A DNA stretch of 64,000 bases, taken from Chiloscyllium plagiosum. Lineage: Eukaryota. A program made the position numbers and the translations under genes. The stretch is taken from assembly GCF_004010195.1 (NCBI RefSeq), contig NC_057727.1, positions 33,724,803-33,788,802 of the forward strand. Reading direction: 5' to 3'. The notes below the pieces were generated by a model. That model was not told the origin of the DNA and ran no database searches. It saw nothing but the letters and a program-made list of their open reading frames with translations. This document shows, piece after piece, positions 35,431 to 62,694 of this stretch. How positions within the stretch are numbered: position 1 is the first letter of the stretch; each line of letters starts with the position of its first letter.

Positions 35431-35925
35431 NNNNNNNNNNNNNNNNNNNNNNNNNNNNNNNNNNNNNNNNNNNNNNNNNNNNNNNNNNNNNNNNNNNNNN
35501 NNNNNNNNNNNNNNNNNNNNNNNNNNNNNNNNNNNNNNNNNNNNNNNNNNNNNNNNNNNNNNNNNNNNNNNNNNNNNNNNNNNNNNNNNNNNNNNNNNNN
35601 NNNNNNNNNNNNNNNNNNNNNNNNNNNNNNNNNNNNNNNNNNNNNNNNNNNNNNNNNNNNNNNNNNNNNNNNNNNNNNNNNNNNNNNNNNNNNNNNNNNN
35701 NNNNNNNNNNNNNNNNNNNNNNNNNNNNNNNNNNNNNNNNNNNNNNNNNNNNNNNNNNNNNNNNNNNNNNNNNNNNNNNNNNNNNNNNNNNNNNNNNNNN
35801 NNNNNNNNNNNNNNNNNNNNNNNNNNNNNNNNNNNNNNNNNNNNNNNNNNNNNNNNNNNNNNNNNNNNNNNNNNNNNNNNNNNNNNNNNNNNNNNNNNNN
35901 NNNNNNNNNNNNNNNNNNNNNNNNN
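35431..35925. other. Assembly gap (495 N)
   Basis: Run of n. Confidence 1.
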
Positions 35926-36297
35926 CAGCATTTCATCTCCCCCTCCCACTCCACCGAGGATATGCAGGTCATTGGACTCATCCACCGCCAAACCACAACA
36001 ACCCGACGGTCGGAGGAGGAGCGTCTTATCTTCCGACTGGGAACCCTCCAACCGCAGGGGATGAACTTGGACTTCACCAGTTTCTTCATCCCCCTCCCCC
36101 CCCCTTGTCTCAGCTGGATCCTTCCGGCCCGGCACCGCCTTCCTGTCCTGCAGTCTTCTTCTTGACCTCTCCGCCTCCATCCTACTCCGACCTATCACCC
36201 TCACCTTGACCTCTTTCCACCTATCACATTTCCAACTCCCCTCCTCCAAGTCCCTCCTCCCTACCTTTTATCTTCTCCTGCTGAACACTCTCTGCTC

Positions 36298-36333
36298 ATT
36301 CCTGAAGAAGGGCCTGTGCCCGAAACGTCGAAT
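36298..36333 (+). ncRNA. Minimal type-I hammerhead ribozyme motif in the PLE pLTR; antisense copies at 34045-34080 and 34933-34968
   Basis: AUUC-CUGAAGA-A-GGGC(CUGU)GCCC-GAAA-C-GUC-GAAU: CUGANGA and GAAA cores, 4-bp stem II, stem I AUUC/GAAU, GUC site, palindromic ACGU in place of stem III. Confidence 0.65.
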
Positions 36334-36409
36334 CTCCTGTTCCCTGGATGCTGCCTGACCTGCTGTGCTGTTCCAGCAATAAAGTTTCAACTTAAGAATT
36401 TCAGAGCAA

Positions 36410-36670
36410 GTTGACGGGGGAAAGCGCACGGTCAGGGTGGATGGCGCATGCGCTTTACGGAAGGTGACCGACGATTGCCGGGAGACAGAGCGGGAAATGA
36501 CGCTCCGGTGACCGGCGGTTGCCCGGGGACAGAACGGGAAGTGACACTCCGGTGACCGGCGGTTGCCGGGCGACAGAACGGGAAGTGACGTTCCGGTGGC
36601 CGGCCGTTGCCGGGTGACGAGCTCTGGCAGTCCGCTCGAGCTGCCTGTCAGTCTGTAGCTGGCCGTCGCC
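36410..36670 (+). promoter_or_regulatory. CpG-rich RPP14/HTD2 promoter/5' region: NRF1-type GCGCATGCGC (36444-36453), E2F-like GCGGGAAA, repeated GGAAGTGAC (ETS/CRE-like) motifs
   Basis: Abrupt CpG enrichment immediately upstream of the RPP14 ATG. Motifs read directly from the sequence; the TSS is not determinable. Confidence 0.75.
36463..36618 (+). repeat. 44-bp tandem repeat, ~3.5 copies (GGTGACCGGCGGTTGCCGGGNGACAGAACGGGAAGTGACGNTCC)
   Basis: Unit starts at 36463, 36507, 36551 and 36595. Confidence 0.92.
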
Positions 36671-36762
36671 ATGAACAGTCCGGGGGAGGAGCGGGAAGCT
36701 GCGGCCTACGAGCGGCACGTTTCCAGAAACAGCTGCCTTTACCACTACCTGAAGGTCGGCCT
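36671..36762 (+). CDS. RPP14: RPP14 (RNase P subunit p14) coding exon 1 (MNSPGEEREAAAYERHVSRNSCLYHYLKVG/L)
   Basis: gtcGCCATG Kozak context, gtgagt donor, phase 2. Aligns to recalled human AATYERVVYKNPSEYHYMKVCL. Confidence 0.92.
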
Positions 36763-36861
36763 GTGAGTGAGAAATATCTCCCGATTCCTCGGCACCACGC
36801 CGATCTTTGAGTTCCTCCTGTTCGACTGCACTCACTCCGGTTTCGTTTCTTTTTAAAACAG

Positions 36862-36952
36862 AGAGTTTGGGGAAACGAGGCCTGCGTTCAAGGTGAGCGC
36901 TGCTCACTTTAAACAGTTGATCGTTTCGGCGCTGAAGGATTTGCACGGAGAG
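36862..36952 (+). CDS. RPP14: RPP14 coding exon 2 (EFGETRPAFKVSAAHFKQLIVSALKDLHGE)
   Basis: Follows a 99-nt intron; tttctttttaaaacag acceptor, gtatga donor, 91 nt. AAxFKQL..SA.KDL.GE motif. Confidence 0.93.
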
Positions 36953-37352
36953 GTATGAATGCAATAATTCGGTATTCCACTCCCTGGTACTATCATTGAT
37001 GGCTCAATCGGCCTCGCAAGGGAATACAGACTGAATGTAACGTCCAGATAGTGATACGCTGCAGAAAAGGGATTCAGTTAAAAATCACACAACGCCAGGT
37101 TACAGTCCAACAGGTTTATTTGGAAACACTAGCTTTCGGAGCGCTGCTCCTTCTTCAGATAGTTGTGGAGCAGGACTATAAGAAAGAATTTATAGCAAAA
37201 TATTATAGTGCCATGCAACTGATATGACATTGAATAAACCTAGTAGGGTAAAAACAATGACTGCAGATGCTGGAAACCAGATCCTGGATCAGTGGTGCTG
37301 GAAGAGCACAGCAATTCAGGCAGCATCCGAGGACAGGCAAAATCGACGTTTC

Positions 37353-37912
37353 GGGAGGAGCGGGAAGCTGCGGCCTACGAGCGGCACGTTTCCAGAAACA
37401 GCTGCCTTTACCACTACCTGAAGGTCGGCCTGTGAGTGAGAAATATCTCCCGATTCCTCGGCACCACGCCGATCTTTGAGTTCCTCCTGTTCGACTGCAC
37501 TCACTCCGGTTTCGTTTCTTTTTAAAACAGAGAGTTTGGGGAAACGAGGCCTGCGTTCAAGGTGAGCGCTGCTCACTTTAAACAGTTGATCGTTTCGGCG
37601 CTGAAGGATTTGCACGGAGAGGTATGAATGCAATAATTCGGTAGTCCACTCCCTGGTACTATCATTTATGGCTCAATCGGCCTCGCAAGGGAATACAGAC
37701 TGAATGTAACGTCCAGATAGTGATGCGCTGTAGAAAAGGGATTCAGTTAAAAATCTCACAACGCCAGGTTACAGTCCAACAGGTTTATTTGGAAACACTA
37801 GCTTTCGGAGTGCTGCTCCTTCTTCAGATAGTTGTGGAGCAGGACTATAAGAAAGAATTTATAGCAAAAGATTATAGTGCCATGCAACTGATATGACATT
37901 GAATAAACCTAG
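37353..37912 (+). pseudogene. Tandem duplicate of 36684-37243: ATG-less RPP14 exon 1, intron 1, complete exon 2 copy (37531-37621) and the start of intron 2
   Basis: Constant offset of 669 bp. Exon 1/intron 1/exon 2 part appears identical; about 7 substitutions by eye in the intron-2 part. Confidence 0.9.
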
Positions 37913-43858: not shown

Positions 43859-44164
43859 ATTAGATTAGATTAGACAAGACTCCCTACTGTGTAGAAGTAG
43901 GCCCTTCGGCCCAACAAGTCCACACCGACCCTCCGAAGAGTAACCTACCCAGTCCCATTTCCCTCTGACTAATGCACCTAACACTACGGGCAATTTAGTA
44001 TGGCCAATTCACCTGACCTGCACATCTTTGGACTGTGGGAGGAAACCCACGCAGACACTGGCAGAATGTGCAAACTCCATACAGGCAGTCGCCCGAGGCT
44101 AGAATCTAGCCTGGGACCCTGGTGCTGTGAGGCAACAGTGCTAACCACTGAGCCACCGTGCTGC
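43859..44164 (-). mobile_element. HE1-type V-SINE; another antisense copy at 45460-45720
   Basis: (TAGAT)n start, reverse V-domain, reverse A/B boxes. Confidence 0.9.
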
Positions 44165-44526
44165 TCGGGGTTGAGCATTTTTTTGTCCATCCCTAGTTGC
44201 CAATGAGAAGGTGGTAGTGCAGCCTCGAACCACAGTGGTTCAATTTGGTGTAGCTACCCCAAAAATGCTGTTGGGTAGGGAATTTCAGGATTTGTAGTGG
44301 TGTTCTAGATGCCAGTAGGTGTGTGATTGAACATTGTTGTATCATCCATACAGATGATTATTTATTCCAATCTCTGTGTCACAAATAATTCACAAACCGT
44401 GTAGAGTTTAACAAGAGTATATATCCATACTCAGTTTCCTTTGGAAAATGTATTTATTTCAATATGCCTTAGAAATTCATGCCTGTCATTCTAAAGATTA
44501 ATGTTCTTAAAATATTTATTTTGCAG

Positions 44527-44603
44527 TTTGGAGCGGCCTTACCTGTTGATGTATTGAGATATGAAGAAGAAACATTGATAGCTACATTGAGAGTAAGAAG
44601 CAG
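44527..44603 (+). CDS. RPP14: RPP14 coding exon 3 (FGAALPVDVLRYEEETLIATLRVRS/S)
   Basis: ttttgcag acceptor, gtggg donor, 77 nt. Aligns to recalled human VDAALPLDILTYEEKTLSAILRICS. Confidence 0.94.
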
Positions 44604-44895
44604 GTGGGTGTGCATAGTAATGATATAAAGCTACTTTATTGTGATAAATATAACTTAAAAAATCATTGTAGTACTTTTTTATTTGAATAAAGCCTTATTG
44701 AACTCAAAAATGAATAAGTTCCAGATGAAAAACTGGTTTATGGTGCATGACTAGGTCAAGTACTGTTGGCTTCCACTGTCTTCTGCCAGAACCAGACTTT
44801 TCTTTGCAATCATAATGGAAGGGAACAAGAGCTTGCCATTCATTCCTACTGTATCAAACATTTCCTTAAATGACTGTTGGTTCCCCCACTTTTTT

Positions 44896-44896
44896 T

Positions 44897-44933
<37 letters not shown>

Positions 44934-45047
44934 CCATATATATGTGTATATATATACTCTCTCTATTATGTATATCTCTCTCTATTATGTATATCTCTCT
45001 CTATGTGTATATCTCTCTCTATATATTATATCTCTCTCTCTCTATCT
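44896..45047. repeat. Compound (CT)n/(TA)n microsatellite
   Basis: Read directly. Confidence 0.95.
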
Positions 45048-47522
45048 CACCCAATGTGAGAAGCTCATAGATTTCTGTGAAGATACATGCACTCCCTTCT
45101 GTTCACTGAACCCAAGTTGTGGAGGTGCTGCTGTTGGACTGGGGTGGACAAGGTTAGAAATCACACAAGTTATAGCCCAACAGGTTTATTTGGAAGTACT
45201 AACTTTCTAAGTGCTGCTCCTTCATCAAGTAGCTGTGGAGTAGGATCGTAAGGCAGAATTTATAGCAAAAGATTAATGCCATGCAACTGACACAATCTAT
45301 TGAACAAACTTAGATTGCTGTTAAGTCTTTCATCTTTTGGAATGGATTGCAGGTTTCAGTTCATTAATATCTAATTCGAGTTATCTCGAGATTGTGACTT
45401 AAAAGAACTTCTGGGATTAACATATTAATGAAATGAAACCTGCAACCCATTCTAAAAGGTTAGATTCCCTACAGTGTGGAAACAGGCTCTCCGGCCCAAC
45501 AAGTCCACACCGACCCTCCGAAGAGTAACCCACACAGACCAATTTCTCTCTGACAAATGCACCTAACACTATGGACAATTTAACATGGCCAATTCACCTG
45601 ACCTGCACGTCTTTGGACTGTGGGAGGAAACCCACGCAGACACGAGGCGAATGTGCACACTCCACACAGACAGTCACCCGAGGCTGGAGTTGAACCTTTG
45701 GACCCTGGTGCTGTGAGGCCGAAAGACTAAACAGCAATCTACATTTGTTCAATATATCATTTTGGTTGCATGACACTGTAATCGTTTGCTATAAGTTCTG
45801 TATCTTATGATCCTGCTGCACAGGTACCTAATGAAGGAGCAGCGCTCCGAAAGCTGGTACTTGCGAATAAACCTGTTGGACTATAAGCTGGTGTTGTGAT
45901 TTTTAACACTGAATCTCAAGCTCCCTTGTCTTATCTATGAATTGAACTACTTCTGCCATTTCTCTCCTATCGTCTTCCCTTGTGCCCTCTGAGATCAGCT
46001 TTTTCGTAAGACACAGGTCCTACTTTCTTTAGTCCATTAATACTAAGTGACTACATTGAATTACCTTTCCTTGCCAAAAATGCTAACTGGCATTTAAAAA
46101 AATATTGTCTCCTTAGATCTTTTCCTTCATTCTTTCAAAATTGCCATGCCCTCCAGAAGAAGGCAACTTTCACCCCTCTGTCTTTGCAAACTGCAATTAC
46201 ATCTCCACTCTCCCTTTAGTCTCAAATGTTTGAACATAGTGGTCCTTCCCAAATCTATGCTCAATTTTTCTGCAACAGTTTATTTTGATCTCTGTCCAGC
46301 TAACCATCTTTGCCAGATAACTGAAACAATGCTGATCAATGGCAAAACTTACACATTTGTATTGCATTTTATTATCCTTTCATAATCTTTTTCCTAATGT
46401 TGGCAGATTCGTCAATGTCACTAACCTCTAATGAAGTTCCTCTGTTATCCAGCTCAATTGAATGACCTCACTTGGTTCCACAGTTACCTAATTTATCCTG
46501 CTTAGGCTATTGAAAAAATGCATTTTTGGTCACAATTTGTTCATGATTAACAAGCTGCCCCTTATCAATATAATTGTAAGCACACATTAGTTTCCAGGGG
46601 GGCTACATTTAGGACTACATTTCCACCATATCTCTCATGTGTTCTCTCCTCCTTTGTGCTTGACAGGTATCCTGTTTTCTCTTTGGGTTTATCTACAGTT
46701 AAATATTAGGAAAGACTGAAACCATTGTTTTTAGCCTTCAACTCTGTACTGTGAGCCCTATTGTTTGCAATTTTGCCAAGCTGAGCTTTGTTTCATGATC
46801 CTTTCATCACATAAACCATCAGGTTTAAATTTGTAATTTGTTCTGCCTTTGCCTCAGCTTCAACCCATCTGTTACTGGAATACTTTTTCTAAAATGCTTT
46901 CTTGGGCTGTGATGACAATGCAAACATTTATGTCTATATCTTAATTGCCTTTGAGAAGGTGGTGGTAAGCTGTTGCCACACATGTACCTCAAAGTAGTGC
47001 CTCCTGTACATCCACTTGAACATGTGGTGTGAACTCTGTCTGCATTGCTCATACATCTTCCATGTCCTCAATGACCTTACTGGTTCCAGGTCACTAAATA
47101 CTTCAGATTTAAAATTATCTTTATTTAAATTATTTTTACAACTTGACCTTCTCAGTAACATCCTTCACCCATTCTACTTCAAACTCTGTTCCTTTGACTC
47201 TTCTAGTATAGCCCACTTTTTATTTTTTCCACCACATTCCTTCATCATTTGAGCCCTGTGCTGTAGATTCTCTTGTTAAACCTCTCACACTTCGCACCTC
47301 TTTAAGCCCTCCTTGAAGACGTAAGCATTTTTTTTAGAAAAAGAGTTTAAATTGTTGCTCAATCTCTCTTTAGGTTGCATTTTATATTGCTTCATCGGTT
47401 AAGTATTTTGGAATATTAGTTTAAAGTCACTATGTAAATTTTAAATGTTTGAACGAAGAACACTAAAACAAATGTCAATGTCTAACTCTTGCAAGTTTTA
47501 TTAAAAGTATTTCTGTTTACAG

Positions 47523-47601
47523 TGGCCTTGTGAAGCTGTGGAGTGCACTGACCCTGCTGGGATCTTATCAAAATCAGAAGTGTGCTTTCAGAGTGATGCA
47601 G
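47523..47601 (+). CDS. RPP14: RPP14 coding exon 4 (GLVKLWSALTLLGSYQNQKCAFRVMQ)
   Basis: tttacag acceptor, gttata donor, 79 nt. GLVKLWS.LTLLGSY...KCAFRV.Q motif. Confidence 0.96.
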
Positions 47602-48525
47602 GTTATATATTTGTTTATTATAGAAAAAATAATCTTTAAGTTATTCTTTAACCACAAAACATAAAATAGAAAACTGCTGTTCTTCAGCTGTTACCTAGTG
47701 GTTATATTAATAGAGTTGTCATTTCTATCAAAGAAAACACAAACCTGACTTTTACAATGTTGCAAATCACTATGAATCCAAATCACTAAAGTATCCATTC
47801 TTTAATTTTATTCAAATTTTTATTTATTTTAGCAATAATTTAAACTGAAATGTTATTTTTGTTCCTTGGAATTGTACTTTTCATTTCCACCTGCTGTTTT
47901 GTCTATTTCTCTTTTTCATTTATTACTATTCTTTCATTTTCCAACATGTTGAATCCTCAGATTATTTCACTTGAAATTAATTTCAATTCATCCATATTTA
48001 TATTACCTCTTTGTGATTATTGCCTGTATTCCCTTGTCTCTTTGTCTCTCTTCTACTCTGCCTATCCCCTACATATAGCTGTGTTACACTTATAATAGTA
48101 ATGTCTATTTTCCTATTAATCATTTAGACCATTGTACTATAGAGTATAAATTGGTTTCAAGGTTGAGGAAAACTGTAATAGCCCAAATTCTAGTAGAATC
48201 TTGAAATTCACTGAGAACAAGACCAACTGTGAGGTCTGAATTCAGCAGGACAAAGCAGAGGGATCCATTTCGTTGGGATGTTTATTTAATTGGAATGATC
48301 ACTGGAGCAGATCTGGAAGAACGATGTATTGGATATTGATTTTATATTTCTTTCTCCAATTCTGTAGTTGTGGAAAAACCCATCAAAATGTAATATCTCT
48401 TGATGGGAGAAAGGAAACTAATCTTTGTATTTTAGATCTCCAAATGTAGTTAAACAGATTTTAAAACAACTTGATTGTTGTTTTTAATTGGTAATTAATT
48501 GCATTTTTATCTCTTTATTGTATAG

Positions 48526-48582
48526 GTCTCGCCATTTCTTCTTGCACTATCAGGCAACAGTAGAGAATTGGTGTTAAACTGA
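48526..48582 (+). CDS. RPP14: RPP14 last coding exon (VSPFLLALSGNSRELVLN*)
   Basis: ttgtatag acceptor, TGA at 48580-48582. Exon lengths sum to 92+91+77+79+57 = 396 nt = 131 aa + stop. Confidence 0.96.
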   Translation, partial: VSPFLLALSGNSRELVLN

Positions 48583-48626
48583 GGTCATTGACAATTAACA
48601 GGTGTTTAAAGTGACCGCTCTAAAAA

Positions 48627-49145
48627 ATGCAATTTTGTACTCAAAGAGTTATACTTAGTATCTTTCAGAGCCCATTAAAGATGGGTCACTGGCGCACAAG
48701 CAACATGTTGATACCACAAAATGCTTTTCTTCGGACTGTGCATCTTCAGGTTGGCGAAAGAGCTGAACTTACTAAAGCTTTTTCACAGAGTGATGTATTC
48801 ACCTTTTCAGAGTTAACTGGTGATACTAACCCATTACATCTTAATGAAGATTTTGCCAAAGACAACAAGTTTGGAAAGCTAGTTGTTCATGGTGTACTGG
48901 TTTGTGGATTAATGTCTGCCGTTTTGGGAACCAAGGTACCCGGATGTGTTCTTCTATCCCAGGAACTCCGGTTTTTAGCACCCTTGTACATAGGTGAGCA
49001 GGCCTCAGCAATTGCAGATGTTATTAAAATAAGGAGGTCAATAGCTTGGATTGCTGTTTCATGTATTGTCAAAGAAACTAAGAAGGTTATAATGAAGGGG
49101 GAAGTGAAGATCATGTTGCCAGAGAATAGAGATCAAAGTGTATGA
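48627..49145 (+). CDS. HTD2: HTD2, mitochondrial hydroxyacyl-thioester dehydratase type 2 (MaoC/hot-dog fold, mtFAS II), 172 aa, intronless
   Basis: Hydratase-2 motif [13 protein letters not shown] and ...VHGVL. The first 43 aa have no D/E and are R/S/L-rich (presequence-like). Lies directly downstream of the RPP14 stop, as in human. Confidence 0.96.
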
Positions 49146-49207
49146 ATTTATCATTGAAACTGAAAAATAACTTGGAAAAGTTATATTAGCCAATGAATAT
49201 TATTTAA

Positions 49208-49213
49208 AATAAA
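49208..49213 (+). terminator. Candidate RPP14/HTD2 poly(A) signal
   Basis: AATAAA 62 nt after the HTD2 stop, followed by TG-rich sequence. An alternative AATAAA lies at 49675-49680. Confidence 0.55.
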
Positions 49214-49970
49214 TACCAATGATTGTAAATACTGTCTTGTAACTTGTGAAAAATGTGTGGCAACATTTGTTCTTGTATCTGGGATGGCTTTTGTAACTAA
49301 TCCAGGCTAGTAAACACTTAGATTGGCTGTCTCAACATAGTTTTCCATTTTACTTTAATTCTAAGAACAAAGTTAAACTAAAACTTCAAATTTTACAAAC
49401 AGATTACCTCTAACAGAGAATGACTGGGGCAACAATTAGAATATTGAAGATGATGGAGGTCTGATATGAAGTCACACATCAACATGAAGTGGAATTATAT
49501 CACCTCTCCTTCAACATTGCTAAGCAAAGTCCAGAAACACACTGCCAAATAGCACTATAGGTCACCTTCAGCATATGGTGTGCAACGATATAAGAAATTG
49601 GTTCAACTTCAACAGGACATCGGAAGGGCAACTAGAGATGTGCTAATGTTGTAAAGGACACACAATCTTTCAATAATAAAAATATCCCTTAACGTCTTGC
49701 ACTCACCTGGAAATTACAAGAAGTACCAATATACCTACAGGTAGGTTTTGATGCACAGTATCTCAACCTTGCACAATGAAAAATAGCTTGGGCCCTGTTT
49801 TGGAGATTGTTGGTAAGCCAAATCTCTCAGCATGTAGAAGTGCAGGACTTAGTCACCATACAAGCCATTTTTGCACAGTAAATGATACAGTGGCACAACT
49901 AAGATAGAAGTTATGGATTTTTGAGTTTATTCATGCACCAGCCCTTTTCTAAAATTGCTGTATTATTTGT

Positions 49971-50280
49971 GGGCGGCACGGTGGCACAGTGGTTAGCACT
50001 GCTGCCTCACAGCGCCAGAGACCCGGGTTCAATTCCCGCCTCAGGCGACTGACTGTATGGAGTTTGCCCGTTCTCCCCGTGTCTGCGTGGGTTTCCTCCG
50101 GGTGCTCCGGTTTCCTTCCACAGTCCAAAGATGTGCAGGATCAGGTGAATTGGCCATACTAAATTGCCCGTAGTGTTAGGTAAGGGGTAAATGTAGGGGT
50201 ATGGGTGGGTTTCGCTTCGGCGGGTCGGTGTGGACTTGTTGGGCCGAAGGGCCTGTTTCCACACTGTAATCTAATCTAAT
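49971..50280 (+). mobile_element. Full-length HE1-type V-SINE
   Basis: GGGCGGCACGGTGGCACAGTGG A-box, GGGTTCAATTCCC B-box, V-domain, (AATCT)n tail. CpGs are retained, so likely young. Confidence 0.93.
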
Positions 50281-51454
50281 TACATAACATGAAAAAAGGA
50301 ATATAAAAGGCTGTGAACTGTCACTGAATTTAGTCAATATACATACACACAGCAAATATTCAGAGATTAGATTTACTTTTAGGGTAAAAATTGGAAGTAT
50401 ATGCACATAACAAATTAGTGGTATACTGATGATGAAGTTGTGGTACACTGCAGAACCTGAGGAGGTTTTACAAATTATCATACAAGGAAAATCTCAACAT
50501 TTAGAATATAGATTTGAGTATGAATATTAAAACGCCAAAACAATGGTAAATAAAAGGGATATACTAGAAGAAAGCAGTAATGATTGAAGTAGATTGTGAC
50601 CCACTGGAACAAGACATTTGTCTATTTTGGACAAATTATAACAGAAGATGGCAGATGTCATGCAGAAGTTAGAAGGGTAGAAGTAGCCAGAAGAGATCTC
50701 ATGAGATGAAAAATATTAACAACAGGAAAACTCAGGCTTATAATAAAGAAAAGAAATCTGGGATAATGCTTCATTCTATCCACATTCCCATAAGGCTCAG
50801 AAACCTGGACAATAAATATCAATGGAAGGAAAGTTCACCCTTCAAATGTGGATGCTAAAGTAAATACTAAAACTTACACATACACACTATAAGACAAAAG
50901 AAAAATACTTGAAATTGCAAGACCAACCTCTGAAATGACATCCAGAAAATAAAATATATGTATTTTGACCATAACATTAAAGCTGAAAAGCTATTGGGCT
51001 CTCTGGTAGATTGAGGACAACCTGAAGAGGGATTGACTTAGACATAGTTAGATTTGTCTGTCACCGACTGGTAGTAGATGAGCTACGATGAGCATATGGG
51101 GATAATATAAACATGTAAGTGGCACACCATGATAGCAGATCTCCTGACAACAAATCAGTGGCAGAAACAAGTTTATCCACAGTTGAAAGCAAATTAAAAG
51201 CTAATCTAATTTTTTTTTCATCTCTGGTAGATTTTGATTAAGTGACACAAATAGGCCATAAAATTTGTTGTGTCATAGAGTCAAAAAAATGCTTTTCACC
51301 AGTTCTGTCAAATCTCTAGGGAGATTTGGCCATGGACTTCCATTGGATTGGTCTACCTTATAGAAATGTACAGCAATGATGTGATGTTGCCTTCTGCAGG
51401 ATGGCTGACCAGAAAACCCTCTTGCTTTTACTGTCTGCAGTCAAATACATTGCA

Positions 51455-53180
51455 ACATAGAGGATAGGATCAGGAGTAAGTCATTCAAGCTCTTGAGTCT
51501 GTTCCCCCCACTCAATATGATCATGGCTGATCAATGACCTCAATAATTTAGTCCTTTCCTCGTCTTCCTCCTCCTCTATCCCCGCCACAACATATGCCTT
51601 GATGATCCCTTTAGGAACAAGAGCAATATCTACTTCCATGTAAATACATAACGTTTTGACCTCCATCATTTTCTGTTGTAATGAATTCCACAGGCTCACC
51701 ATTCTCTGGGTGAAGAAGTTTCTCCTCATCTCAATTCTAAAAGATTGATTCATTATCATTACACTATGAAGCCTGGTTCTAGACTCCCCCACCATTGGGA
51801 ACATCCTTTCTGCATATAACCTGTCTCCTCATACATCAGTCCTGCCATCTCAAGAATCAATTTGATAAGCCTTCACTGCTCCCCTATATCTAGTACATCC
51901 TGAGATAAAGAAGACCAAAACTGCACAAAATATTCAAGTGTGGACTCACCAATGCCCTGTACAATTGCAGAAACATATCCTTGTTCTTGAACTCACATCC
52001 TCTTGTTATGAAGGCCAACATGCAGTTTGCTTTCTTTACTGGCTTCTGCACCTGCACATTTATTTTCAGTGACTAATGCATGAGGACAGCCAGGTCTCAT
52101 TGAACATTCCCCCTCTCAAATCTTTACCACTCAAAAAATAATCTGCCTTCCGATTTTTGCTGCCAAAGTGGATAACCTCACATTTATTCATATTATATTG
52201 AATCTGCCATGCATTTGCCCACTACTGAGCCTGTGCAAATCACACTAACATTTCTGCATTCTCCTTGTAGCTTACCCTTTTCACCCAACTTTGTGTTAAT
52301 TACAAATTTTGAGATATATTTAGTTACCTTTTTTAAATCATTAACAGTATTATGAATAGCTGGGATCCTAAGTACCAATCCCTGTGTATCCCACTATTAA
52401 CTGCCTGCAAGTCAGAAAAAGACTCATTTTCTGTTTGCTAACAAATTTTCTATCCATATCAATACACTACCTCAATCCCATGCAATTTAACTTTACACAT
52501 TAATCTTTTATGTGGGACTTTGTTAAACGTCTTCTGACGTCCAAGTAAACAATATCCATTGGCTCCCCCAATCAATTCATTACATCCTCGAAGAACTCCA
52601 GTGTTTTCTCAAGCTTGATTTCCCTTTTCCATATCCACTGACTATGTCTGACTCTACCACTGTTTTCAAAGTGTTCTGATATAAAATTCATGATGATGGC
52701 ATCTTGCATCTTCCCCACTATCAGTGTTAGACTTACAGGTGTATAATTCCCTGTTTTCCCTCTAACTCCTGTATTAAATGATGGGGCTACATTAACTACA
52801 CTCCAACCTGTAAGAATTGATTCAGAGTTGAAATAATCTTGGAAGACGACCACCAATGCAGCCAATATTTCTATGGTCACTTCCTTAAGTACTTCATGAT
52901 GTAGATTATTAGGCCCTGAGGATTTATCAGTCTTCAATCTTATCAATTTCACCAACACCATTTTTCTACTAATTTGAATTTCATTCAGTTCCTCCCCACC
53001 TCGAAACCCTGTGATCCCCATATTTTCTGGTACATTATTTATGACCTCCCTTGTGAAGACATAAGTTGGTCAACATTTCTTTGTTCTCCTGTTTCTGACT
53101 GTAAGGAACCCACATTAGTTTTCACCAAATCTTGTCCCTTTACAAACCTATAGAAACTTTACAGTCACTTCTTATGAACT
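51455..53180 (-). mobile_element. Old CR1 LINE (RT region to 3' end)
   Basis: LKTDKSSGPNNLH, GNYTPVSLTLIVGK, EMRRNFFTQRMVSLWNSL. Confidence 0.85.
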
Positions 53181-53830
53181 CTGCAAGACATCCTGGAATA
53201 GTGTACATAGAATGGGGAGATGGTGGGACAGTGTTTATGTCTCTAGACTAGAAATTCAGAGATCCAGCATGATGTTCTTGGGGTACAAATTCTAATCCAT
53301 TCTGACAGCCGGTGGAATTTCAATCAAATTTAGTTAATAAATCTGGAATCGAAACTTACTCTCAATAATCATGAATTTATTGCAAAAACTCATCTGGTTC
53401 ACTAATAACATTTAGGGAAGGAAATCTGCCATTCTTAGCTCGCCTGATCTAATGTTATTCCAGACCCATCGCAAAGTGCTTGACTCTTCACTGCCCTCTG
53501 AACTGGTTTAGCAACCGAATCAATGAAATGGCAATTCGAGATCTGCAAGAAAGGTTGACCTTGCTAGTGACTTCATGTCTCATGAAAGAACAAAGAGAAA
53601 ATGAATTATATTTATAATTGCAAAATATAAATAGGTAATTCATTCCAACAAGTCAGTGCTAGTGTTTATAGTGCACATAAGGCTCATTCTATTCCTTCTA
53701 CTTCCATTTCAGCATGTCTTTCTCCTTTCCTTTAATTCATGCAGCTAATTTCCGAAAGCATCTAAGCTTTTTGCCTCAACCACTTTGCAAGTTCCACATT
53801 CTAATCACTGTTTGAGTAAGATATTTCTTC

Positions 53831-56800
53831 TCATAGATCATAGAGTCAGCATGGAAATAGACTCTTCGGTCCAACCCGTCCATGCCGGCCAGATATCCCA
53901 ACCCAATCTAGTCCCATCTGCCAACACCCGGCCCATATTTCTTCAAACCCTTCCTATTCATATACCCCTCCAGATGCCTTTTAAATGTTGCAATCATACT
54001 AGCCTCCACCACTTTCTCTGGCAGCTCATTCCTTGCACATACTACCCTCTACGTGAAAACGTCGCCCCTTAGGTCGCTTTTATATCTTTCCCCTCTCACC
54101 CTAAAACTATGCCCTCTCGTTCTGGACTCCCCCACCCCGGGGAAGAGACTTTGAATATTTATCCTATCCATGCCCCTCATGATTTTGTAAACCTCTATGA
54201 GGTCACCCCTCAGCCTCCGACGCTCCAGGGAAAACAGCCCCAGTTGATTAAATCTCTCCCTATAGCTCGAATCCTCCAATCCTGGCAACATCCTTGTAAA
54301 TCTTTTCTGAACCCTTTCAAGTTTGACAACATCCTTCCGACAGGAAGGAGATGAGAATTGCATGCAATAATCCAAAGTGGCCTAACCAATGTCCTGTACA
54401 GCCACAGCATGACTGTACAGAATTCTGTACTCACAGTGCTCACCACTGTACCACTGTGCCACCTGTAGTTTCTCCTTAGGTCGCTTTTATATCTTTCCCC
54501 TCTCACCCTAAAACTATGCCCTCTCGTTCTGGACTCCCCCACCCTGGGGAAGAGACTTTGAATATTTATCCTATCCATGCCTCTCATGATTTTGTAAACC
54601 TCTATGAAGTCACCCCTCAGCCTCCGACGCTCCAGGGAAAACAGCCCCAGTCGATTAAATCTCTCCCTATAGCTCGAATCCTCCAATCCTGGCAACATCC
54701 TTGTAAATCTTTTCTGTACCCTTTCAAGTTTGACAACATCCTTCCGACAGGAAGGAGATGAGAATTGCATGCAATAATCCAAAGTGGCCTAACCAATGTC
54801 CTGTACAGCCACAGCATGACTGTACAGAATTCTGTACTCAATACTCTGACCAATAAAGGAAAGCATACCAAATGCCTTCTTCACTATGCTATCTACCTGT
54901 GACTCCACTTTCAAGGAGCTATGAACTGCACTGTAAGGTCTCCTTGTTCAGTAACACTCCCTAGGACCATACCATACAGTGTATAAGTCCTGCTAAGATT
55001 TTGTTTCCCAAAGTGCAGCACCTCACATTTATCTAAATCAAACTCCATCTGCCACTTCTCAGCCCATTGGCCTGTCCAATCAAGATCCCGTTGTAATCTG
55101 AGGTAACCTTCTTCGCTGTCCACTAAACCTCCAATTTTGGTGTCATCTGCAAACTTACTAAGTATACCTCTTATGCTCGCATCCAAATCATTTATATAAA
55201 TGACGAAAAGTAGTGGGCCCAGCACCGATCCTTGTGGCACTCCACTGGTCATAGGCCTCTAGTCTGAAAAACAACCCTCCACCACGTCGAACACGTTACT
55301 GATCACCAGTTTCACCAGTTTTCTCATTTCCCCTCCCTTCACCTTACCCCAGTTCCAACCTTCCAGCTCAGCACCATCCTCATGATCTGTCCTACCTGCC
55401 AATCTTCATTCCCACCTATCTGCTCCACCTTCCTCTCTGACCTATCACCTTTATCCCCACCTCCATCCACCTATTGCACTCTTAGCTACCTTCTGTCTGC
55501 ACCACCACCCCCACCTACCTCCCATTTATCTCTCCACTCCGGAGGCTCCCAGCCTCATTCCTGATGAAGGGCTTCTGCCTGAAACATCGATTTTCCTGCT
55601 CCTTGGATGCTGCCTGACCTGCTGTGCTTTTCCAGTATCACTCTAATCTTGACTCCATATAGATCACGTCCGTAGATCTGCCCTCGTCAATTCTCTTTGT
55701 TACTTCTTCACAAAACTGAATCAAGTTTGTGAGATATGATTTCCCACACACAAAGACATGTTGACTGTCCCTAATCAGTCCTTGCCTTTCCAAATACATG
55801 TACATCCTGTCCCTCAGGATTCCCTCCAACAACTTGCCCACCACCGACATCAGGCTCACTGGTCTATAATTCCCTGGCTTGTCCTTACCACCCTTCTTAA
55901 ACAGTGGCACCATGTTAACTCTGTTTGCCAAAGCTATCACATGATCCTGTTTTGCCCTCCTGATTTCCTATTGCCTTAACACTCTTCTAAGGATTCACTC
56001 CATCTATCCTGGTTATACTTGATTTATGCTTCCTTCTTTTTCTTAACCAAACCCTCAATTTCTCTATTCATCCGGCATTCCCTACACCTAACAGCCTTTC
56101 CTTTCACGCTAACAGGAATATACTTTCTCTGGACTCTTGTTATCTCATTTCTGAAGATTTCCCATTTTCCAGCCATCCCTTTACCTGCAAACATCTGCCC
56201 CCCAATCAGCTTTTGAAATTTCTTGCCTAATAACTTCAAAATTAGCCTTCCTCCAATTTTAGAATTTCAACTTTTAGATCTGGTCAATCCTTTTCCATCA
56301 CTTTTTTAAAACTAATGGTCGATGGCCCCATAGTGTTCCCCCACTGACACCTCAGTCACCTGCCCTGCCTTATTTCCCAAGAGTAGGTCAGGTTTGCACC
56401 TCCTCTAGTAGGTACATCCACATATTGAATCAGAAAATTGTCTTGTACACACTTAACAAATTCCTCTCCATCTGAACCCTTAAAACTACGGCAGTCCCAG
56501 TCAATGTTTGGAAAGTCAAAATCCACTAGCATAACCACCCTATTATTCTTACAGATATCTGAGATCTCTTTACAAATCTGTTTCTCAATTTCCCTCTGAC
56601 TATTAGGGGATTTATAATACGATCCCAATAAGGTGATCATCCCTTTCTTATTTCACAGTTCAACCCAAATAACTTCCCTGGATATATTTCCAGGAATATC
56701 CTCCCTCAGCACGCTGTAATGCTATTCCTTATCAAAAACACCCAGCACGCTGTAATGCTATTCCTTATCAAAAACACCACTCCCCCTCCTTGCCTCCCTT

Positions 56801-58640
56801 TCTGTCCATCCTATAGCATTTGTACCCTGGAACATTAACATGGCTCCATTCCTGAGCCATGTTTCTGTATTTGCTATGATATCCCAATCCCAAGTTCCTA
56901 ACCATGCCCTGATTTCATCTGCCTTCCCTGTTAGGCCCTTGCATTTAAATAATGCAGTTTAATTTATCAGTCCTACCTTGTTCTCTGCTTTGTCCCTGCC
57001 TGCCCTGACTGTTTGACTCACTTCTGTTCTCAACTGTACCAGTCTCTTTCCCCATTATCTCCCTGGGTCACCCCACCCCCCCCAACCTTAATAGTGTAAA
57101 TCTCCCGAGCAGCTCTAGTAAATCTCCCTACCAGTATATTAGTCCCCTTCCAATTCAGATCCAATCCATCCTTCTTGTACAGGTCACTTCTACCCTCCCT
57201 TGTACAGATCAATTCTCCCATACACCAGGTCAATTCTCCCATACACTAGCTCCTTAGCAGATGCATTCATCTGCTTCATCCTCCTATTCCTGTTCTCACT
57301 AGCTCGTCACAACGGCAGTAATCCAGATATTACTACTCTTGAGGATCTCTTTTATAAATTCCTGCCTACCTCTTTATATTCTCCATTCAGAATCTCATCC
57401 TTTTCCCTTCCTATGTCATTGGTTCCAATGTGTACAATGACTCCTGCTGGTCCTTCTCCCCCTTGAGAACATTCTGCACCCTCTCTGAGACATCATTGAT
57501 CCTGGCACCAGGGAGGCAACACAGGGAGGCAACACACCATTCTGATTTTTCGCTGCTAGCCACAGAAACATCTGTCTGTGCCTCGGACTAGAGAATCCCC
57601 TAACACAATTGATCTCTTGGAACCTGATGTTCCCCTCATTGCATTAGAGCCAGTCTCGATACCAGACACTTGGCTGTTCATGCTACATTCCTCTGAGAAT
57701 CTATCACCCCCTACATTTTCCAAAACAGCATACTTGTTTGAAATGGGGATAGCCACAGAAGACTCCTGCACTACCTGCCTACTTCTCCAACCTTTCCTGG
57801 AGTTAACCCATCTATGTGACTGTACCTGCAACTTTTCTCCCTTCCTATAACTGCCATCCATCACACCCCTTGCGCTTGTAAATTCGTCATTGCCTCTATC
57901 TGTCTCTCCAACCGATTCATTCAATCTGATAGAATTCGCAACCAACGACATTTATTGCAGATATAATCCTCAGTAACACAAAAGCTCTCCCTGAACTCCC
58001 ACATCCGTCAGGAAGATCATATCACTCTACTAAAGGCCATTTTTGCTTCTTTCAATCTACAGACTGAGAAAATAGCACTGTCTTATTCCTCTACAAAACA
58101 CGACTCCAGGCTAACTTAGTACTTATGGTTTATATTTTTAAGTTTAATCAAGAGACACATCTCAATAAAACTTATAATAAGGAAGAACCCACTCTATTCA
58201 CTACTGCAGACTTACTGTAAGGCTACACCTAAAAATATTCACTTATCTGTTTCTGTGCTGCGGCGTATCTCAACAATCCTTCAAGATTAGTTGTGAATTT
58301 CACTGTTTGTTAATTTTCCCAGATGCACTCTGATGTCCAGTGATACATGAATTCAAACAACAAAGGCAGTAACTGTGCAGGTTCACTGCTGCGTCAGTTA
58401 GCAGTGTAAGTTTCTTTCTCTCTCTCCTCCACTGACCTCAACATGTGCTGCATTTGTTTGTTCCTCTCCCTTTTAAAAGTGCTGTTGTTTGGCTTTTTTT
58501 CTCCAAAAATTCCAAAACAATGCAACTGCACATAAAACAGTAATTGCTGCTTCTGTAATTTGAGGAAATCACTTTCAACACCTAAACTACCTCAAAAAAA
58601 AGAGTAGCCTGTTACAGCCAGATATTTTTCCTCGTCCTCT
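53831..58640 (-). mobile_element. Near full-length, disabled CR1 LINE: ORF1 (SGNH/GDSL esterase-like, ATG ~58040) and ORF2 (APE endonuclease + RT), with internal deletion, duplication and PLE insertion
   Basis: IVLGDSLVRGTDR; VVMLVDFDFPNIDW; PGNYRPVSLMSVVGKLLE; [13 protein letters not shown]; SKFADDTK. The 5' boundary is approximate. Confidence 0.9.
55300..55652 (+). mobile_element. PLE 3' fragment inserted in the CR1
   Basis: C-rich tract + CTGATGAAGGGCTTCTGCCTGAAACATCG...GATGCTGCCTGACCTGCTG tail. Confidence 0.85.
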
Positions 58641-59744
58641 ATCTTGGATTATCCAGAATCCTTTCTCCCTATTATATTTATTTGCCATGCTTTATTAGTA
58701 CATAGTTCTCTAATGCACCAACTATTTATACTTTGTATAAAATGAGGAACATCAAAAGGCCAAAAATGTAGGAATAGTGCTGACCACCGATCTTCAGAAA
58801 GCTTCCCAGAAAACATGCAATGGATTCAAGAGCACAGATGCCCTTTATTGTCACTTTGAATTTGTTGCCTTCTATAGTGCATGTAGGGTGCAGTAGTAAG
58901 GTAGTCAGCAGGCAACTTAATCAGCAAATAAAATTGAATAATTCTCATTAGTAGCAAAGCAGAAAGTAGAAAAAAACCAGAGAATATAAATCACTGTGCA
59001 GTTATTGAAATAAAAATTGGAACTTACAAGTGAGGTTAAAGCAGAAATATAAAATGTCAGAACATAAACCTTTAAAAGACCTTTTTGAGGCTATGGGGTC
59101 TGTACTTGTGAAATTATTGCTTTGGGGCCACAGAGGTTGTTCGACCGAAGCTGTATCTTGCTGCGCTGTCACAACCTCAGTTAATCCTGATTAAATAATG
59201 CTTAAGCTTTGCATTGACTATATGGTTACTAGAAGTTCCCAACTGACCAATCATTTTTATGCTGGCTTCACCTTTTTTTGGTGGGCTTGAAGGAACAAAT
59301 ACCTTTCTTTTGTTCTATATTTTATTGTTGTTCTGTGATAAATATAACATTCTAGTAGTGAGGTACTGCATCTATGAATTTTATCCCTGCACTTGTTTTC
59401 TGTCTATGTACTAATTAGAACTTAGTACTTTGAAATTTTGTCTTGTTTTGGTGCTCAAATTTTATATTTGATGATTTTCTGCTGGGCAGTGACTCAGCAT
59501 TGATCTCTGATGCTTTCTTGATGTGTGGTGCTGTTGAGCAGCAAATTGCAAATCAATAATCTAATCAAGTTTTTTTGACCAATGACTGGATTTTACAAGC
59601 CCTTGCTAGAATCTGTAATTTTGAATGTGACAATGAGGATGAATTTTATACATTCTTGTATTTCTTAGCTCTGAATTATGATTGGAATTGTCGACATTTA
59701 TTTGTAGAGACAGGCTCGAAGCAAAGACTTAGCATAATTAACTG

Positions 59745-60533
59745 AGAAGAAAGTGAGGACTGCAGATGCTAGTGATCAGAGTCAAAAAATGTGGCGCTGG
59801 AAAAGCACAGCAGGTCAGGCTGTATTTGAGGAGCAGGAGAATCAAAGTTTTGGGCATAAGCCCTTCATCAGGAAGGTGGGTGGGGGGAAGGGGGCTGAGA
59901 GGTAAATAGGAGGGTGGGAGTCGGGGTGGGCGTGGTGGCCTTGATGCCATGTGGTTAGAGAGTTGTAAGATGGAAGATGAGGTATTCTTCCTCCAGGCAT
60001 CGGGTGCTTGGATTTGGCGGTGGAGGAGGCCCAGGACTTGCATTCCTTGGCAGAGTGTGAGGGGGAGTTGAAGTGGTTGGCCACAGGATGGTGGGATTGT
60101 TTGATGCGTGTGTCCCAGAAATGTTCCCTGAAACGTTCTGAGAGTTGGTGTTCTGTCTCCCTAATATAGAGGAGACCACATTGAGAGCGATGGACACAGT
60201 AGATGAGGTGATTGTACATGCAGAAAAATCTGCGCTGGATGTGGAAGGATCCTTTCTGGTCTTGGACGGAGGTAAGGGTGGAGATGTGAGCACAGATTTT
60301 ACACCTCTTACGGCAGTAAGGGAGGGTGTTGGGAGTGGAAGGTGAACTCATGGAATGCTTACCAGCTACCTTCCCCCAAACCCACCCCCACCGTCCTATT
60401 TATCTCTCAGCTGCTGACTTCCCCACAACCCCCCCAACATACCTAATGAAGGGTTTATGCCTGAAATATCGATGTTCCAGCTCCTCAGATGCTGCCTGAC
60501 CTGCTATGCTTTTCCAGTGCCACACATTTCGAC
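59745..60533 (-). mobile_element. Penelope-like element 3' part with a GIY-YIG endonuclease remnant and an inverted pLTR
   Basis: CRKRCKIC...NHLIYCVHRSQCGLLYIRET...SERFREH...HPVANHFNSPSHS. Flanking imperfect repeat ATAAT(T/A)AACTGAG. Confidence 0.88.
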
Positions 60534-60749
60534 AATAATAAACTGAGGAGTCTTGCTGAAAATATGATAATATCTAATAAAAATAAAATTCCTTGCTCTC
60601 CTAAGAGACTAACACATGTAAAAATATATGCAGAGTCTTACGTGCGGGATGGCAGTCATTTTCAGATGTTGTATTGTGAATTTTAAGTTATTTTAAAATA
60701 TTTAACTTCACTGAGATTTGTATTTTTAAATAGGTTACATTGCATAGGA

Positions 60750-62680
60750 CTGCGTAAGATATACTGCATTAAAAATAGGCTATTTGACCAGACTAGTCCA
60801 GAGATGTGACCTATTCAAGCCTGCCATCATTTTTCCAAATCTACCTTCATGACTATCTATGTGCTTCTCCTCCATATACTGGACTAGCTTCCCCTTAAAT
60901 GCAGATATATTATTTGCTTTAACCACTCAATGTGGTGCTTGAGTTTCACATTCTCATCACTCTTTAAGTAAGAACATTTCTTTTGAATTCCCTGTTGGAT
61001 TTTCTGATACCTATCTGATATTGATTTCCTCTAGTTATATTCTCCTCTGCAAGAGGAGATATCCTCTTTCTATCCAGTCTTTAAAATCTTTGATAATTTT
61101 AAAGGTCTCTATTAGGTCACCCCCAGCTTTCTGTCAAGATAAAAGAAACTCGGACTGTCCATCCTGAAATGTATACCCAAGCATTTCTGAAGCTATCCTA
61201 GTAAATTCTCTCTGTACCTGCTCCAGTGCCTCTATATCCTGTTTTTAATACAGTGATAAGAACTGCATTCTATACTGTTAAATGTGGTCTAACCACGATT
61301 CAGGATTATTTTATCACTTATCAATACTATCCTTCTAGAAATAAAGCCGAGAAATTGAAGTGCTTCTTTCTTGATGGCCTTACTACAACTTTTAGTGATT
61401 GGTGTTGTTATGGGGTAGGCTAGACCACTCAAAACCTTCTTAAGTAGGCAGCCTAGACCATAACTTTGCAATTTGTTTCAGTAAGTGTACAGTGAAAATT
61501 ACCTGGATTAAGGTAGCGAGGTGGACTACCAGGTTTAAAACAGTCAAAAAATGTATTCACAAAATTACACAATGAAACATGAAGAACAGAATAAAGAACC
61601 CCTACAGAACTCAGTCTATCCAAACTAGACTTAAGTATGCTGTTCTGAATATTCACAACAGTCCCAATGAGCAAATCCCCTTTAAAACACAGTACAAAAA
61701 AGGAACAGATACTTACAAGATAAAGTTAGAAGGCAGAAAGTGAGAGAGTTTGTTTCCACACAGCTCACTGTTGAACCCCCAAACAGTTCTGGACTGAACT
61801 CTACTACTCAGCTCAGCTAGAGAGCTGACCACTCCCCTTTCATTATAGAGGTCACTTCTAAACCATGACCACTTTAGCCTGAAGTCTCATCTGTTTACAT
61901 ATTTTAAAAAAGGACTCGCAATACCCCTTAATCTCTGTACCAAACCAGACTGATCAGACCCCGGCCAGGTTTATTACCCCTCTGAAAAAAGTCAAGGACA
62001 GAGTCTCCTTGATCCAAGGAACAGCTTTTGGAAAAAAGGGACAGTGTATTTATGTCCTGGGATTTCTTTGCTCCTTTACCCTATATGGTCCTGCACTTTC
62101 TAACTAATAACTGATCTCCAGATTCCTCCGACCAAAATATCCCCACATTTACTTGTGTTGAACTTAATTTACCAATTATTTATTAATGTTCTTTTATAAT
62201 TTGTTGAGGTCCTCCTAAACACTCAGGATCCCACCCCCAATTTGGTGCAAATTGAGAAACTGTGTTTACAATTCCAAGGTCCAACTCATTAATGTAAAAC
62301 AAGAACAGCAATGATCCCAACACTGATTTTTTGGAACACTAGTTGCCACCATCTGCCATTTTGAATAGCTATCCTTCATCTGGCTGTCTGCTTCATGTCT
62401 TGATGCAAGTTAGCAATACATTCTGCCAGTTGGCTCCTGACTTCATATTCTCTATTTTCATTGATCTGTTATGGGACAACTTATTTACAGACCTTTTGAA
62501 AATCCAGATAAACCATGTTTATTGCATTACCTTCTACTTTCTAAGTTATCTCTTCAGAAAAATCAAGAATTGTTCAAGTAAGATTTTCCCTTTGAAATCC
62601 ACACTGACTATTCATTACCATGTATTTATTTTTGAGGTGTTCTTCTATGGTCTCATTCAGTATGGATTCCTTTACATTTC
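60750..62680 (-). mobile_element. Old CR1 fragment interrupted by a solo LTR
   Basis: Minus-strand KEALQFLGFISRRI and MVMNSQCGFQR motifs. Confidence 0.7.
61406..62043. mobile_element. Solo LTR (638 bp)
   Basis: Begins TGTTA, ends GGGACA (TG...CA). 4-bp target-site duplication GTGT at 61402-61405 and 62044-62047. CR1 sequence rejoins across it. Confidence 0.8.
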
Positions 62681-62694
62681 CTGAAACTGATGTC

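What the first reader, a model, noticed from the sequence alone, without database searches (positions are those of the whole stretch)
48526..49145. Bicistronic RPP14/HTD2 terminal exon in a cartilaginous fish
Seen: the RPP14 TGA (48580-48582) is followed 44 nt later by an intact, intronless 172-aa HTD2 ORF, with no AATAAA in between and one just after HTD2. HTD2 is in a different frame and has an in-frame TAA two codons upstream (48621-48623), so readthrough or frameshift fusion is excluded and it needs its own initiation. Known: human RPP14/HsHTD2 is a described bicistronic mRNA linking RNase P to mitochondrial fatty-acid synthesis, conserved in bony fish. Inference: an elasmobranch copy would date the arrangement to the jawed-vertebrate ancestor, and automated annotation could easily miss one of the two ORFs.
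Basis: partly seen in the sequence, partly recalled or inferred. Interest (0 to 1): 0.72.

Follow-up and report, generated by a model that had tools for sequence, protein, structure and literature searches.

The report
Shark RPP14-HTD2 mRNA with fossil copy
A bamboo shark has the known vertebrate gene whose single messenger RNA carries instructions for both a tRNA-processing subunit (RPP14) and a likely mitochondrial fat-building enzyme (HTD2); RNA reads and a dead DNA copy of that RNA elsewhere in the genome show the shared RNA is real, so this is a well-supported but largely expected case.

Summary
In detail: RPP14 stop 48580-48582, 44-nt spacer, intact 172-aa HTD2 in another frame, AATAAA at 49208. 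The gene is the orthologue of the human bicistronic RPP14/HTD2 locus. New evidence that one mRNA carries both ORFs: (1) a processed pseudogene on contig C7 joins all five exons and both ORFs up to the poly(A) signal; (2) a 1638-nt assembled contig splices exon 4 onto the terminal exon and runs through HTD2; (3) 81 of 88 listed poly(A) read ends lie beyond the HTD2 stop, none near the RPP14 stop. Corrections: NCBI already annotates both ORFs in many cartilaginous fishes; and fusion is not excluded, because an in-frame acceptor inside HTD2 (48669) gives a 271-aa fusion annotated in a sister species, though it was not seen in the two contig sets tested. Unlike human, the RPP14 start codon appears to lie in the first exon, so the human exon-2 switch seems unavailable. 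How HTD2 is initiated is untested. This scan reported the same arrangement before in another shark genome. Known kind, modest interest.

The parts
36251..37000 (.). CpG-rich promoter region; palindrome GCGCATGCGC at 36444-36453 (its label as an NRF1-type site is recalled)
36590..36762 (+). Exon 1 as far as the retrocopy shows it; RPP14 ATG at 36671 (G at -3, A at +4). The 5' end likely reaches about 36496 if contig X1 uses the same four exons
36862..36952 (+). RPP14 exon 2 (91 nt)
37353..37912 (+). 98.75% identical duplicate of 36684-37243: exon 1 end without the ATG and an identical exon 2 (37531-37621) with both splice sites; real duplication or assembly artefact unresolved
44527..44603 (+). 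RPP14 exon 3 (77 nt), with two out-of-frame AUGs (44549, 2 aa; 44561, 5 aa)
47523..47601 (+). RPP14 exon 4 (79 nt), with in-frame AUG at 47596 (20-aa ORF to the RPP14 stop)
   Evidence: its last letters are the loose ends of contigs X1 and X16
48526..48582 (+). Terminal exon, RPP14 last 18 codons and TGA
48583..48626 (+). 44-nt intercistronic spacer without AUG; TGA 48612 and TAA 48621 close the HTD2 frame
48627..49145 (+). Intronless HTD2 ORF, 172 aa (AUG with A at -3); further in-frame AUGs at 48681 and 48705
48652..48669 (+). Candidate alternative 3' splice site (AG 48667-48668); exon 4 joined here gives a 271-aa RPP14-HTD2 fusion matching NCBI XP_072438500.1 of C. punctatum at 264 of 271 residues
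   Evidence: not seen in contigs
49208..49229 (+). AATAAA and main poly(A) site (68 reads at 49229; 4 at 49226, 3 at 49231; minor site 49335, 6 reads)

Best explanation
This is the shark orthologue of the vertebrate RPP14/HTD2 gene: one five-exon spliced, polyadenylated mRNA carries the 131-aa RPP14 ORF followed 44 nt later by the intronless 172-aa HTD2 ORF, and HTD2 is likely made from its own AUG on that same mRNA by ribosomes that scan past the RPP14 start or resume scanning after a short upstream ORF. Shown: exon structure, both ORFs on one spliced RNA, 3' end beyond HTD2, and a germ-line retrocopy of that RNA that likely dates to the stem of the bamboo-shark family. Inferred: that both proteins are made from this mRNA, and the route (about 0.55 for leaky scanning or reinitiation): the RPP14 AUG lacks G at +4, only three AUGs lie between the two starts and all open short ORFs (2, 5 and 20 aa), the last ending at the RPP14 stop. 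Keeping the RPP14 stop and all of HTD2 in the last exon would protect the RNA from nonsense-mediated decay, which likely explains why HTD2 is intronless (inference). RPP14 serves RNase P/MRP and HTD2 mitochondrial fatty-acid synthesis (from human work, not tested here).
For: Retrocopy G000:C7:66761688-66762632 (-) is colinear across all four introns and both ORFs, 84-91% identical per exon, ending in AATAAA and an A-run. Contig X1 record 2 (1638 nt, depth 109.5) lies on 48524-49600 with 512 letters upstream, the 30 shown being the end of exon 4; intron depth 0-5.6. X16: junction contig depth 92, terminal-exon contig 95, intron contig 11. X20 raw poly(A) reads: 81 of 88 listed tails after the HTD2 stop, 7 in its last 70 nt, none listed earlier. 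Only one intact copy of each ORF was found in the genome. Chondrichthyan HTD2 starts at the same Met in all 18 sequences aligned. Human precedent: PMC4705651, PMC5932603, PMC11837024 (passages).
Against: No ribosome or peptide data. Out-of-frame AUGs in RPP14 are not significantly depleted (2 seen, 3.1-3.5 expected, P 0.24-0.33). In an engineered bicistronic reporter the downstream ORF gave about a thousand times less protein (PMC11751868, abstract only), and in human an exon-2-less transcript is predicted to encode HTD2 (PMC13408128, passages), so a minor splice form could supply most HTD2. The poly(A) test rests on one library (X21 laid 0 reads); X1 is RNA only by guess and from another organism label; a contig is not a single molecule. 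The Met at 47596 is absent in two lamniform RPP14 proteins.
Confidence: 0.8

Rival explanations
1. The bicistronic RNA exists but is functionally an RPP14 mRNA; HTD2 comes mostly from a minor splice form that removes or shortens the RPP14 ORF, such as exon-2 skipping (40-aa upstream ORF) or a donor at 36647 that cuts out the RPP14 AUG, a shark counterpart of the human exon-2 switch.
For: Human precedent (PMC13408128, passages). A donor-like CCT/GTCAGT lies 24 nt before the AUG and reads GTAAGT in the retrocopy. Modelled forms leave only short ORFs before HTD2. Long first ORFs suppress downstream ones (PMC11751868, abstract).
Against: No such RNA was observed; the retrocopy and the 512-nt upstream arm of X1 fit the full form. 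The zebra-shark gene model read through this region lacks the six codons that hold the donor-like site, which suggests it is not conserved, though that model may be edited. Direct joins of exons 1, 2 or 3 to exon 5 left no loose end in two contig sets.
Confidence: 0.3
2. An alternative acceptor inside HTD2 (48669) is used in a regulated way and gives a 271-aa RPP14-HTD2 fusion protein, or, from the AUG at 47596, an HTD2 with a changed N-terminus.
For: NCBI model XP_072438500.1 (C. punctatum) has exactly this junction; the site has CAG with 10 of 14 pyrimidines, as many as the main acceptor, and is kept in the retrocopy; 'FQ' at this place recurs in most shark and stingray HTD2 proteins.
Against: No loose end or contig break at 48669 in X1 or X16, although X16 did resolve an 11% intron-retaining branch. 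Only 1 such model among the chondrichthyan records seen. The 9 joined models from bony fish and a bird have differing junctions, as gene predictors would make. The fusion would bury the mitochondrial presequence and drop RPP14's last 18 residues (inference).
Confidence: 0.12
3. RPP14 and HTD2 are separate transcription units that only overlap in the last exon: RPP14 RNA ends at ATTAAA 48674 and HTD2 has its own promoter in intron 4.
For: ATTAAA at 48674; intron-4 contig depth 11 against 95 in X16 and about one intronic read in X20; NCBI lists HTD2 as a separate '-like' entry in several sharks and gives two lamniform sharks RPP14 isoforms with other C-termini.
Against: No poly(A) tail listed before 49077; the exon 4 junction accounts for most terminal-exon depth (92 of 95); the retrocopy holds both ORFs. 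No CpG-rich bin near 48500.
Confidence: 0.04

Closest known systems
Human RPP14/HsHTD2 bicistronic locus (Autio et al. 2008; not held, seen only as cited in passages of PMC4705651, PMC5932603, PMC11837024, PMC4419486, PMC6825209)
   Same: Same two orthologous proteins in the same order on one mRNA, HTD2 after the RPP14 stop; similar sizes (131 vs 124 aa, 172 vs 168 aa); ABHD6 upstream and a PX-domain gene downstream (human gene order recalled).
   Different: The RPP14 AUG appears to be in the first exon, not in a cassette exon 2; chondrichthyan HTD2 lacks two residues before 'PGC' found in tetrapods and lungfish; an in-frame acceptor inside HTD2 is annotated in a sister species; the genome holds a retrocopy of the whole bicistronic mRNA.
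TRNAU1AP/PRPF39 control of human RPP14 exon 2 (PMC13408128, passages)
   Same: One locus from which splicing could shift output between RPP14 and HTD2.
   Different: The shark seems to have no non-coding first exon, so skipping the AUG exon is not available; any switch would need another splice event, none shown here.
Processed pseudogenes (retrocopies)
   Same: The C7 copy has no introns, ends at the poly(A) signal with an A-run, has stops and frameshifts and a possible target-site duplication.
   Different: It records a two-ORF mRNA, so it serves as a dated fossil of bicistronic transcription.

Membership tests
Vertebrate RPP14/HTD2 bicistronic locus | First ORF encodes RPP14 | tested here: met
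   131 of 131 identical to NCBI-named RPP14; the retrocopy's first 81 codons match human RPP14, 6AHR chain H, E 1.1e-8
Vertebrate RPP14/HTD2 bicistronic locus | Second ORF encodes HTD2 (MaoC-type dehydratase with D-x-N-P-x-H motif; catalytic role of D and H recalled) | tested here: met
   D66, N68, P69, H71 invariant in 28 of 28 aligned sequences
Vertebrate RPP14/HTD2 bicistronic locus | Both ORFs on one spliced, polyadenylated RNA | tested here: met
   retrocopy, contig X1 and poly(A) reads of X20; no single long read seen
Vertebrate RPP14/HTD2 bicistronic locus | HTD2 lies wholly after the RPP14 stop in the terminal exon, as a separate ORF | tested here: met
Vertebrate RPP14/HTD2 bicistronic locus | HTD2 has an N-terminal mitochondrial targeting sequence | tested here: inconclusive
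   First 25 residues have 3 basic and 0 acidic residues; no predictor or localisation test
Vertebrate RPP14/HTD2 bicistronic locus | Both proteins are translated and active | not testable with these tools
   Only indirect: each is the sole intact copy found and is conserved
Human RPP14 exon-2 splice switch | RPP14 AUG in a skippable second exon behind a non-coding first exon | tested here: not met
   The retrocopy runs contiguously from 36590 through the AUG; X1's arm length points to a start near 36496 in the CpG island; the zebra-shark model reads contiguously from the promoter to the AUG. A rarer upstream exon is not excluded.
Processed pseudogene (C7 copy) | All introns removed at exact junctions | tested here: met
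   4 of 4 junctions
Processed pseudogene (C7 copy) | Poly(A) remnant after the signal and target-site duplication | tested here: inconclusive
   Six A's 13 nt after AATAAA; flanks share a degenerate 17-19-nt repeat, score reached by 37 of 2000 random flank pairs
Processed pseudogene (C7 copy) | Disabled ORFs, neutral decay | tested here: met
   3 stops in RPP14; 1 stop, two 1-nt indels and a 12-nt deletion in HTD2; 58 non-synonymous to 24 synonymous codon changes

The most novel reading that the evidence does not exclude
Cartilaginous fishes keep the ancestral form of the locus, with the RPP14 start in exon 1, and balance RPP14 against HTD2 by a splice choice of their own: an acceptor inside HTD2 that yields a real RPP14-HTD2 fusion protein physically linking an RNase P subunit to the mitochondrial dehydratase, while the human cassette-exon switch evolved later.
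Probability: 0.12. Interest if true: 0.65.

Novelty: new member of a known kind. Interest (0 to 1): 0.3.

Why it matters
It extends one of the few proven vertebrate bicistronic mRNAs from bony vertebrates to cartilaginous fishes with transcript-level evidence, placing it in the jawed-vertebrate ancestor (inference). The retrocopy shows that such an mRNA existed in the germ line long ago, a type of evidence usable where no RNA data exist. Because the shark seems to lack the human skippable AUG exon, it is a cleaner test of whether HTD2 is really translated from the two-ORF mRNA, a mechanism that a 2015 review called uninvestigated (PMC4705651, passage). The gain over what is published and annotated is small.

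Tried and rejected
Idea that the 188-aa skate and sawfish HTD2 forms start at an AUG overlapping the RPP14 stop: the 16-residue extension does not match the window's spacer read in frame and no DNA of those species was available; left open. Lamniform RPP14 isoforms of 120, 153 and 157 aa as products of acceptors in exon 5: their C-termini have no convincing match in window 44000-64000, rejected. AUG depletion as a mark of leaky scanning: not significant. AUG at 36497 as an N-terminal extension of RPP14: closed after 4 codons. Joined RPP14-HTD2 proteins as evidence of a conserved fusion: 9 models with differing junctions and 3 more among 148 representatives, treated as predictor joins that only show adjacency in bony vertebrates. 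Dating beyond jawed vertebrates: none of 148 representatives was a non-vertebrate RPP14-HTD2 join as far as names were seen; 10 were named, 7 of them invertebrate HTD2 with no RPP14 label, no lamprey, hagfish or amphioxus among them; this says nothing about linkage. One search listed no holder on record as RNA; X21 laid no reads (no test). Autio 2008 and one review were not held. Search for HTD2 + RPP14 + shark found 0 papers; related searches listed none on cartilaginous fish by title; subscription papers and supplements were not seen and may hold such a statement.

Full report
Observation. The 172-aa ORF matches Pfam MaoC_dehydratas (E 4e-16) and the human HTD2 structure 3IR3 (E 1.9e-51).

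A fossil of the mRNA. Searching the own genome with HTD2 gave the window itself and one broken copy on contig C7; searching with RPP14 gave the window's exons and the same C7 place. BLASTN shows that the C7 copy is a run of consecutive pieces matching window 36590-36758, 36862-36945, 44525-44599, 47522-47603 and 48524-49184 (84, 88, 87, 91 and 89% identical). All four introns are GT-AG and are absent from the copy at exact junctions. The copy ends in AATAAA and a six-A run; its flanks share a degenerate repeat whose score 37 of 2000 random flank pairs reach, so a target-site duplication is suggested but not firm. It has 3 stops in RPP14, 1 stop and three indels in HTD2, and 58 non-synonymous to 24 synonymous codon changes, as neutral decay would give. 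It is therefore a processed pseudogene of a spliced RNA that held both ORFs. Reading by hand, at 13 sites where the three bamboo-shark proteins differ from whale or zebra shark, the copy shares the bamboo-shark residue at 7 and the older one at 6; at 3 sites special to Chiloscyllium it shares 1. This roughly places the insertion on the stem of the bamboo-shark family (inference, no tree built).

Gene structure. The exons give RPP14: ATG 36671, five coding exons, 131 aa, identical to a protein that NCBI names RPP14 from Chiloscyllium plagiosum; the retrocopy's first 81 codons match human RPP14 in 6AHR. The AUG sits in a CpG island. An ABHD6 exon lies upstream at 6903-7187 and a PX-domain exon about 10 kb past the window's end, which fits the human order ABHD6-RPP14-PXK (recalled).

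RNA evidence (window 48300-49600, four runs). X20 (raw poly(A) single-cell reads, about 2% of the run read, 215 reads laid): listed poly(A) tails at 49229 (68), 49226 (4), 49231 (3), 49335 (6), 49121 (4) and 49077 (3); that is 81 of 88 after the HTD2 stop, 7 in its last 70 nt, none listed near the RPP14 stop or ATTAAA 48674 (listing needs 3 reads). X21 laid nothing. X1 (RNA by guess, another organism label): one 1638-nt contig with 512 letters before 48524, the 30 shown being the end of exon 4, running through HTD2 to beyond 49600. If its arm is exons 1-4, it starts near 36496. X16 (kind not recorded): exon 4-5 junction depth 92, terminal exon 95 unbroken from 48524 to 49269, intron contig 11. 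Neither contig set has a loose end at 48602 or 48669. Contigs drop rare forms and are not single molecules; exons 1-4 were not covered by any lay.

Relatives and annotation. Of 130 proteins at E below 1e-30 (120 listed), the top 18 are this protein and 17 from cartilaginous fishes, 14 with species names, including the chimaera Callorhinchus. Four of the 14 HTD2 proteins are named 'RPP14 isoform X1' by NCBI, and the chimaera cDNA product is named RPP14-like. HTD2 and RPP14 have consecutive accessions in Hemiscyllium, Cetorhinus and Carcharodon. This suggests the same locus across sharks, rays and chimaera, but I did not see their DNA. Annotation thus does not miss the ORFs; it mislabels them.

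Is a fusion excluded? Not by splicing. NCBI's C. punctatum isoform X1 is 271 aa: RPP14 residues 1-113 joined to HTD2 from Ser15. Joining window exon 4 to 48669 gives 271 aa, 264 identical to it; the acceptor is CAG with 10 of 14 pyrimidines, like the main one, and survives in the retrocopy. Against its importance: it is unseen in X1 and X16 although X16 resolved an 11% branch; it is the only such chondrichthyan record met; and 9 joined models of bony fish and a bird all differ in junction. I give it 0.12 of being a used, functional form.

How HTD2 is likely made. Two in-frame stops in the spacer rule out readthrough or frameshifting, so on the main RNA HTD2 needs its own AUG. Between the two starts lie only three AUGs, opening ORFs of 2, 5 and 20 codons, the last ending at the RPP14 stop. 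The RPP14 AUG has G at -3 but A at +4; the HTD2 AUG has A at -3 and is the conserved first Met in all 18 chondrichthyan sequences aligned, some skates and the sawfish having an extra upstream Met. Leaky scanning with reinitiation after a short ORF is the simplest route and is what a review proposes, untested, for human (PMC4705651, passages). The AUG count is not lower than chance (P 0.24-0.33), and an engineered bicistronic RNA gave about a thousand times less downstream protein (PMC11751868, abstract). In human, loss of the AUG-bearing exon 2 gives an RNA predicted to encode HTD2 (PMC13408128, passages). The shark AUG appears to be in the first exon, so that switch seems unavailable; exon-2 skipping (40-aa first ORF) or a donor-like site at 36647 could replace it but were not observed or tested.

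Comparison and verdict. The system is known: conserved for over 400 million years according to Autio 2008 as cited in PMC5932603 (passages); also PMC11837024, PMC4419486, PMC6825209, all passages; PMC12819141 passages were irrelevant. The original paper was not held. A search for HTD2, RPP14 and shark found 0 papers. This locus is a member of the known kind by every feature that could be tested; translation of both proteins could not be tested. What is added: transcript-level support in a shark, a retrocopy that fossilises the bicistronic mRNA, and two differences from human (first-exon AUG, candidate fusion acceptor). Interest 0.3.

Noticed in passing
G000:C7:66761540-66762713 approx. (L002 1340-2526, minus strand): Processed pseudogene of the whole RPP14-HTD2 mRNA; its 3' UTR is about 85 nt longer than the parent's and a 30-nt piece beside the poly(A) signal is inverted relative to the parent, so one of the two was rearranged after insertion.
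   Followed up: yes
window 36684-37243 and 37353-37912: 560-bp tandem duplication (98.75% identical) holding the end of exon 1 without its ATG and an identical second exon 2; including both exon copies would cut RPP14 to 77 aa. It lies near an assembly gap (35431-35925) and another 99% inverted repeat (36136-36393 / 34873-35130), so it may be an assembly artefact.
   Followed up: partly
window 36463-36618: 3.5 copies of a 44-bp GC-rich unit in the promoter and 5' UTR, each with a CGGGAAGTGAC-like motif (ETS-type label recalled).
   Followed up: no
window 6903-7187: Exon of ABHD6 (match to human 7OTS, E 3.6e-18), plus strand, upstream neighbour.
   Followed up: yes
G000:C18:33798571-33798723 (L013/L014 border); CpG-rich bin just past the window end: PX-domain exon on the plus strand, probably PXK (name recalled from human gene order).
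   Followed up: partly
   Followed up: partly
P0139, P0195-P0197: Basking and white shark have annotated RPP14 isoforms with unrelated C-termini (120, 153, 157 aa), likely other last exons; no counterpart found in this window.
   Followed up: partly
window 49335 and 49675: Minor poly(A) site at 49335 without a canonical signal; contig X1 runs to about 49650, near a second AATAAA at 49675, so a longer 3' UTR may exist.
   Followed up: no
window 48583-48619: The first 34 nt of the spacer are identical in the retrocopy although the copy is only about 88% identical overall; may be chance.
   Followed up: no
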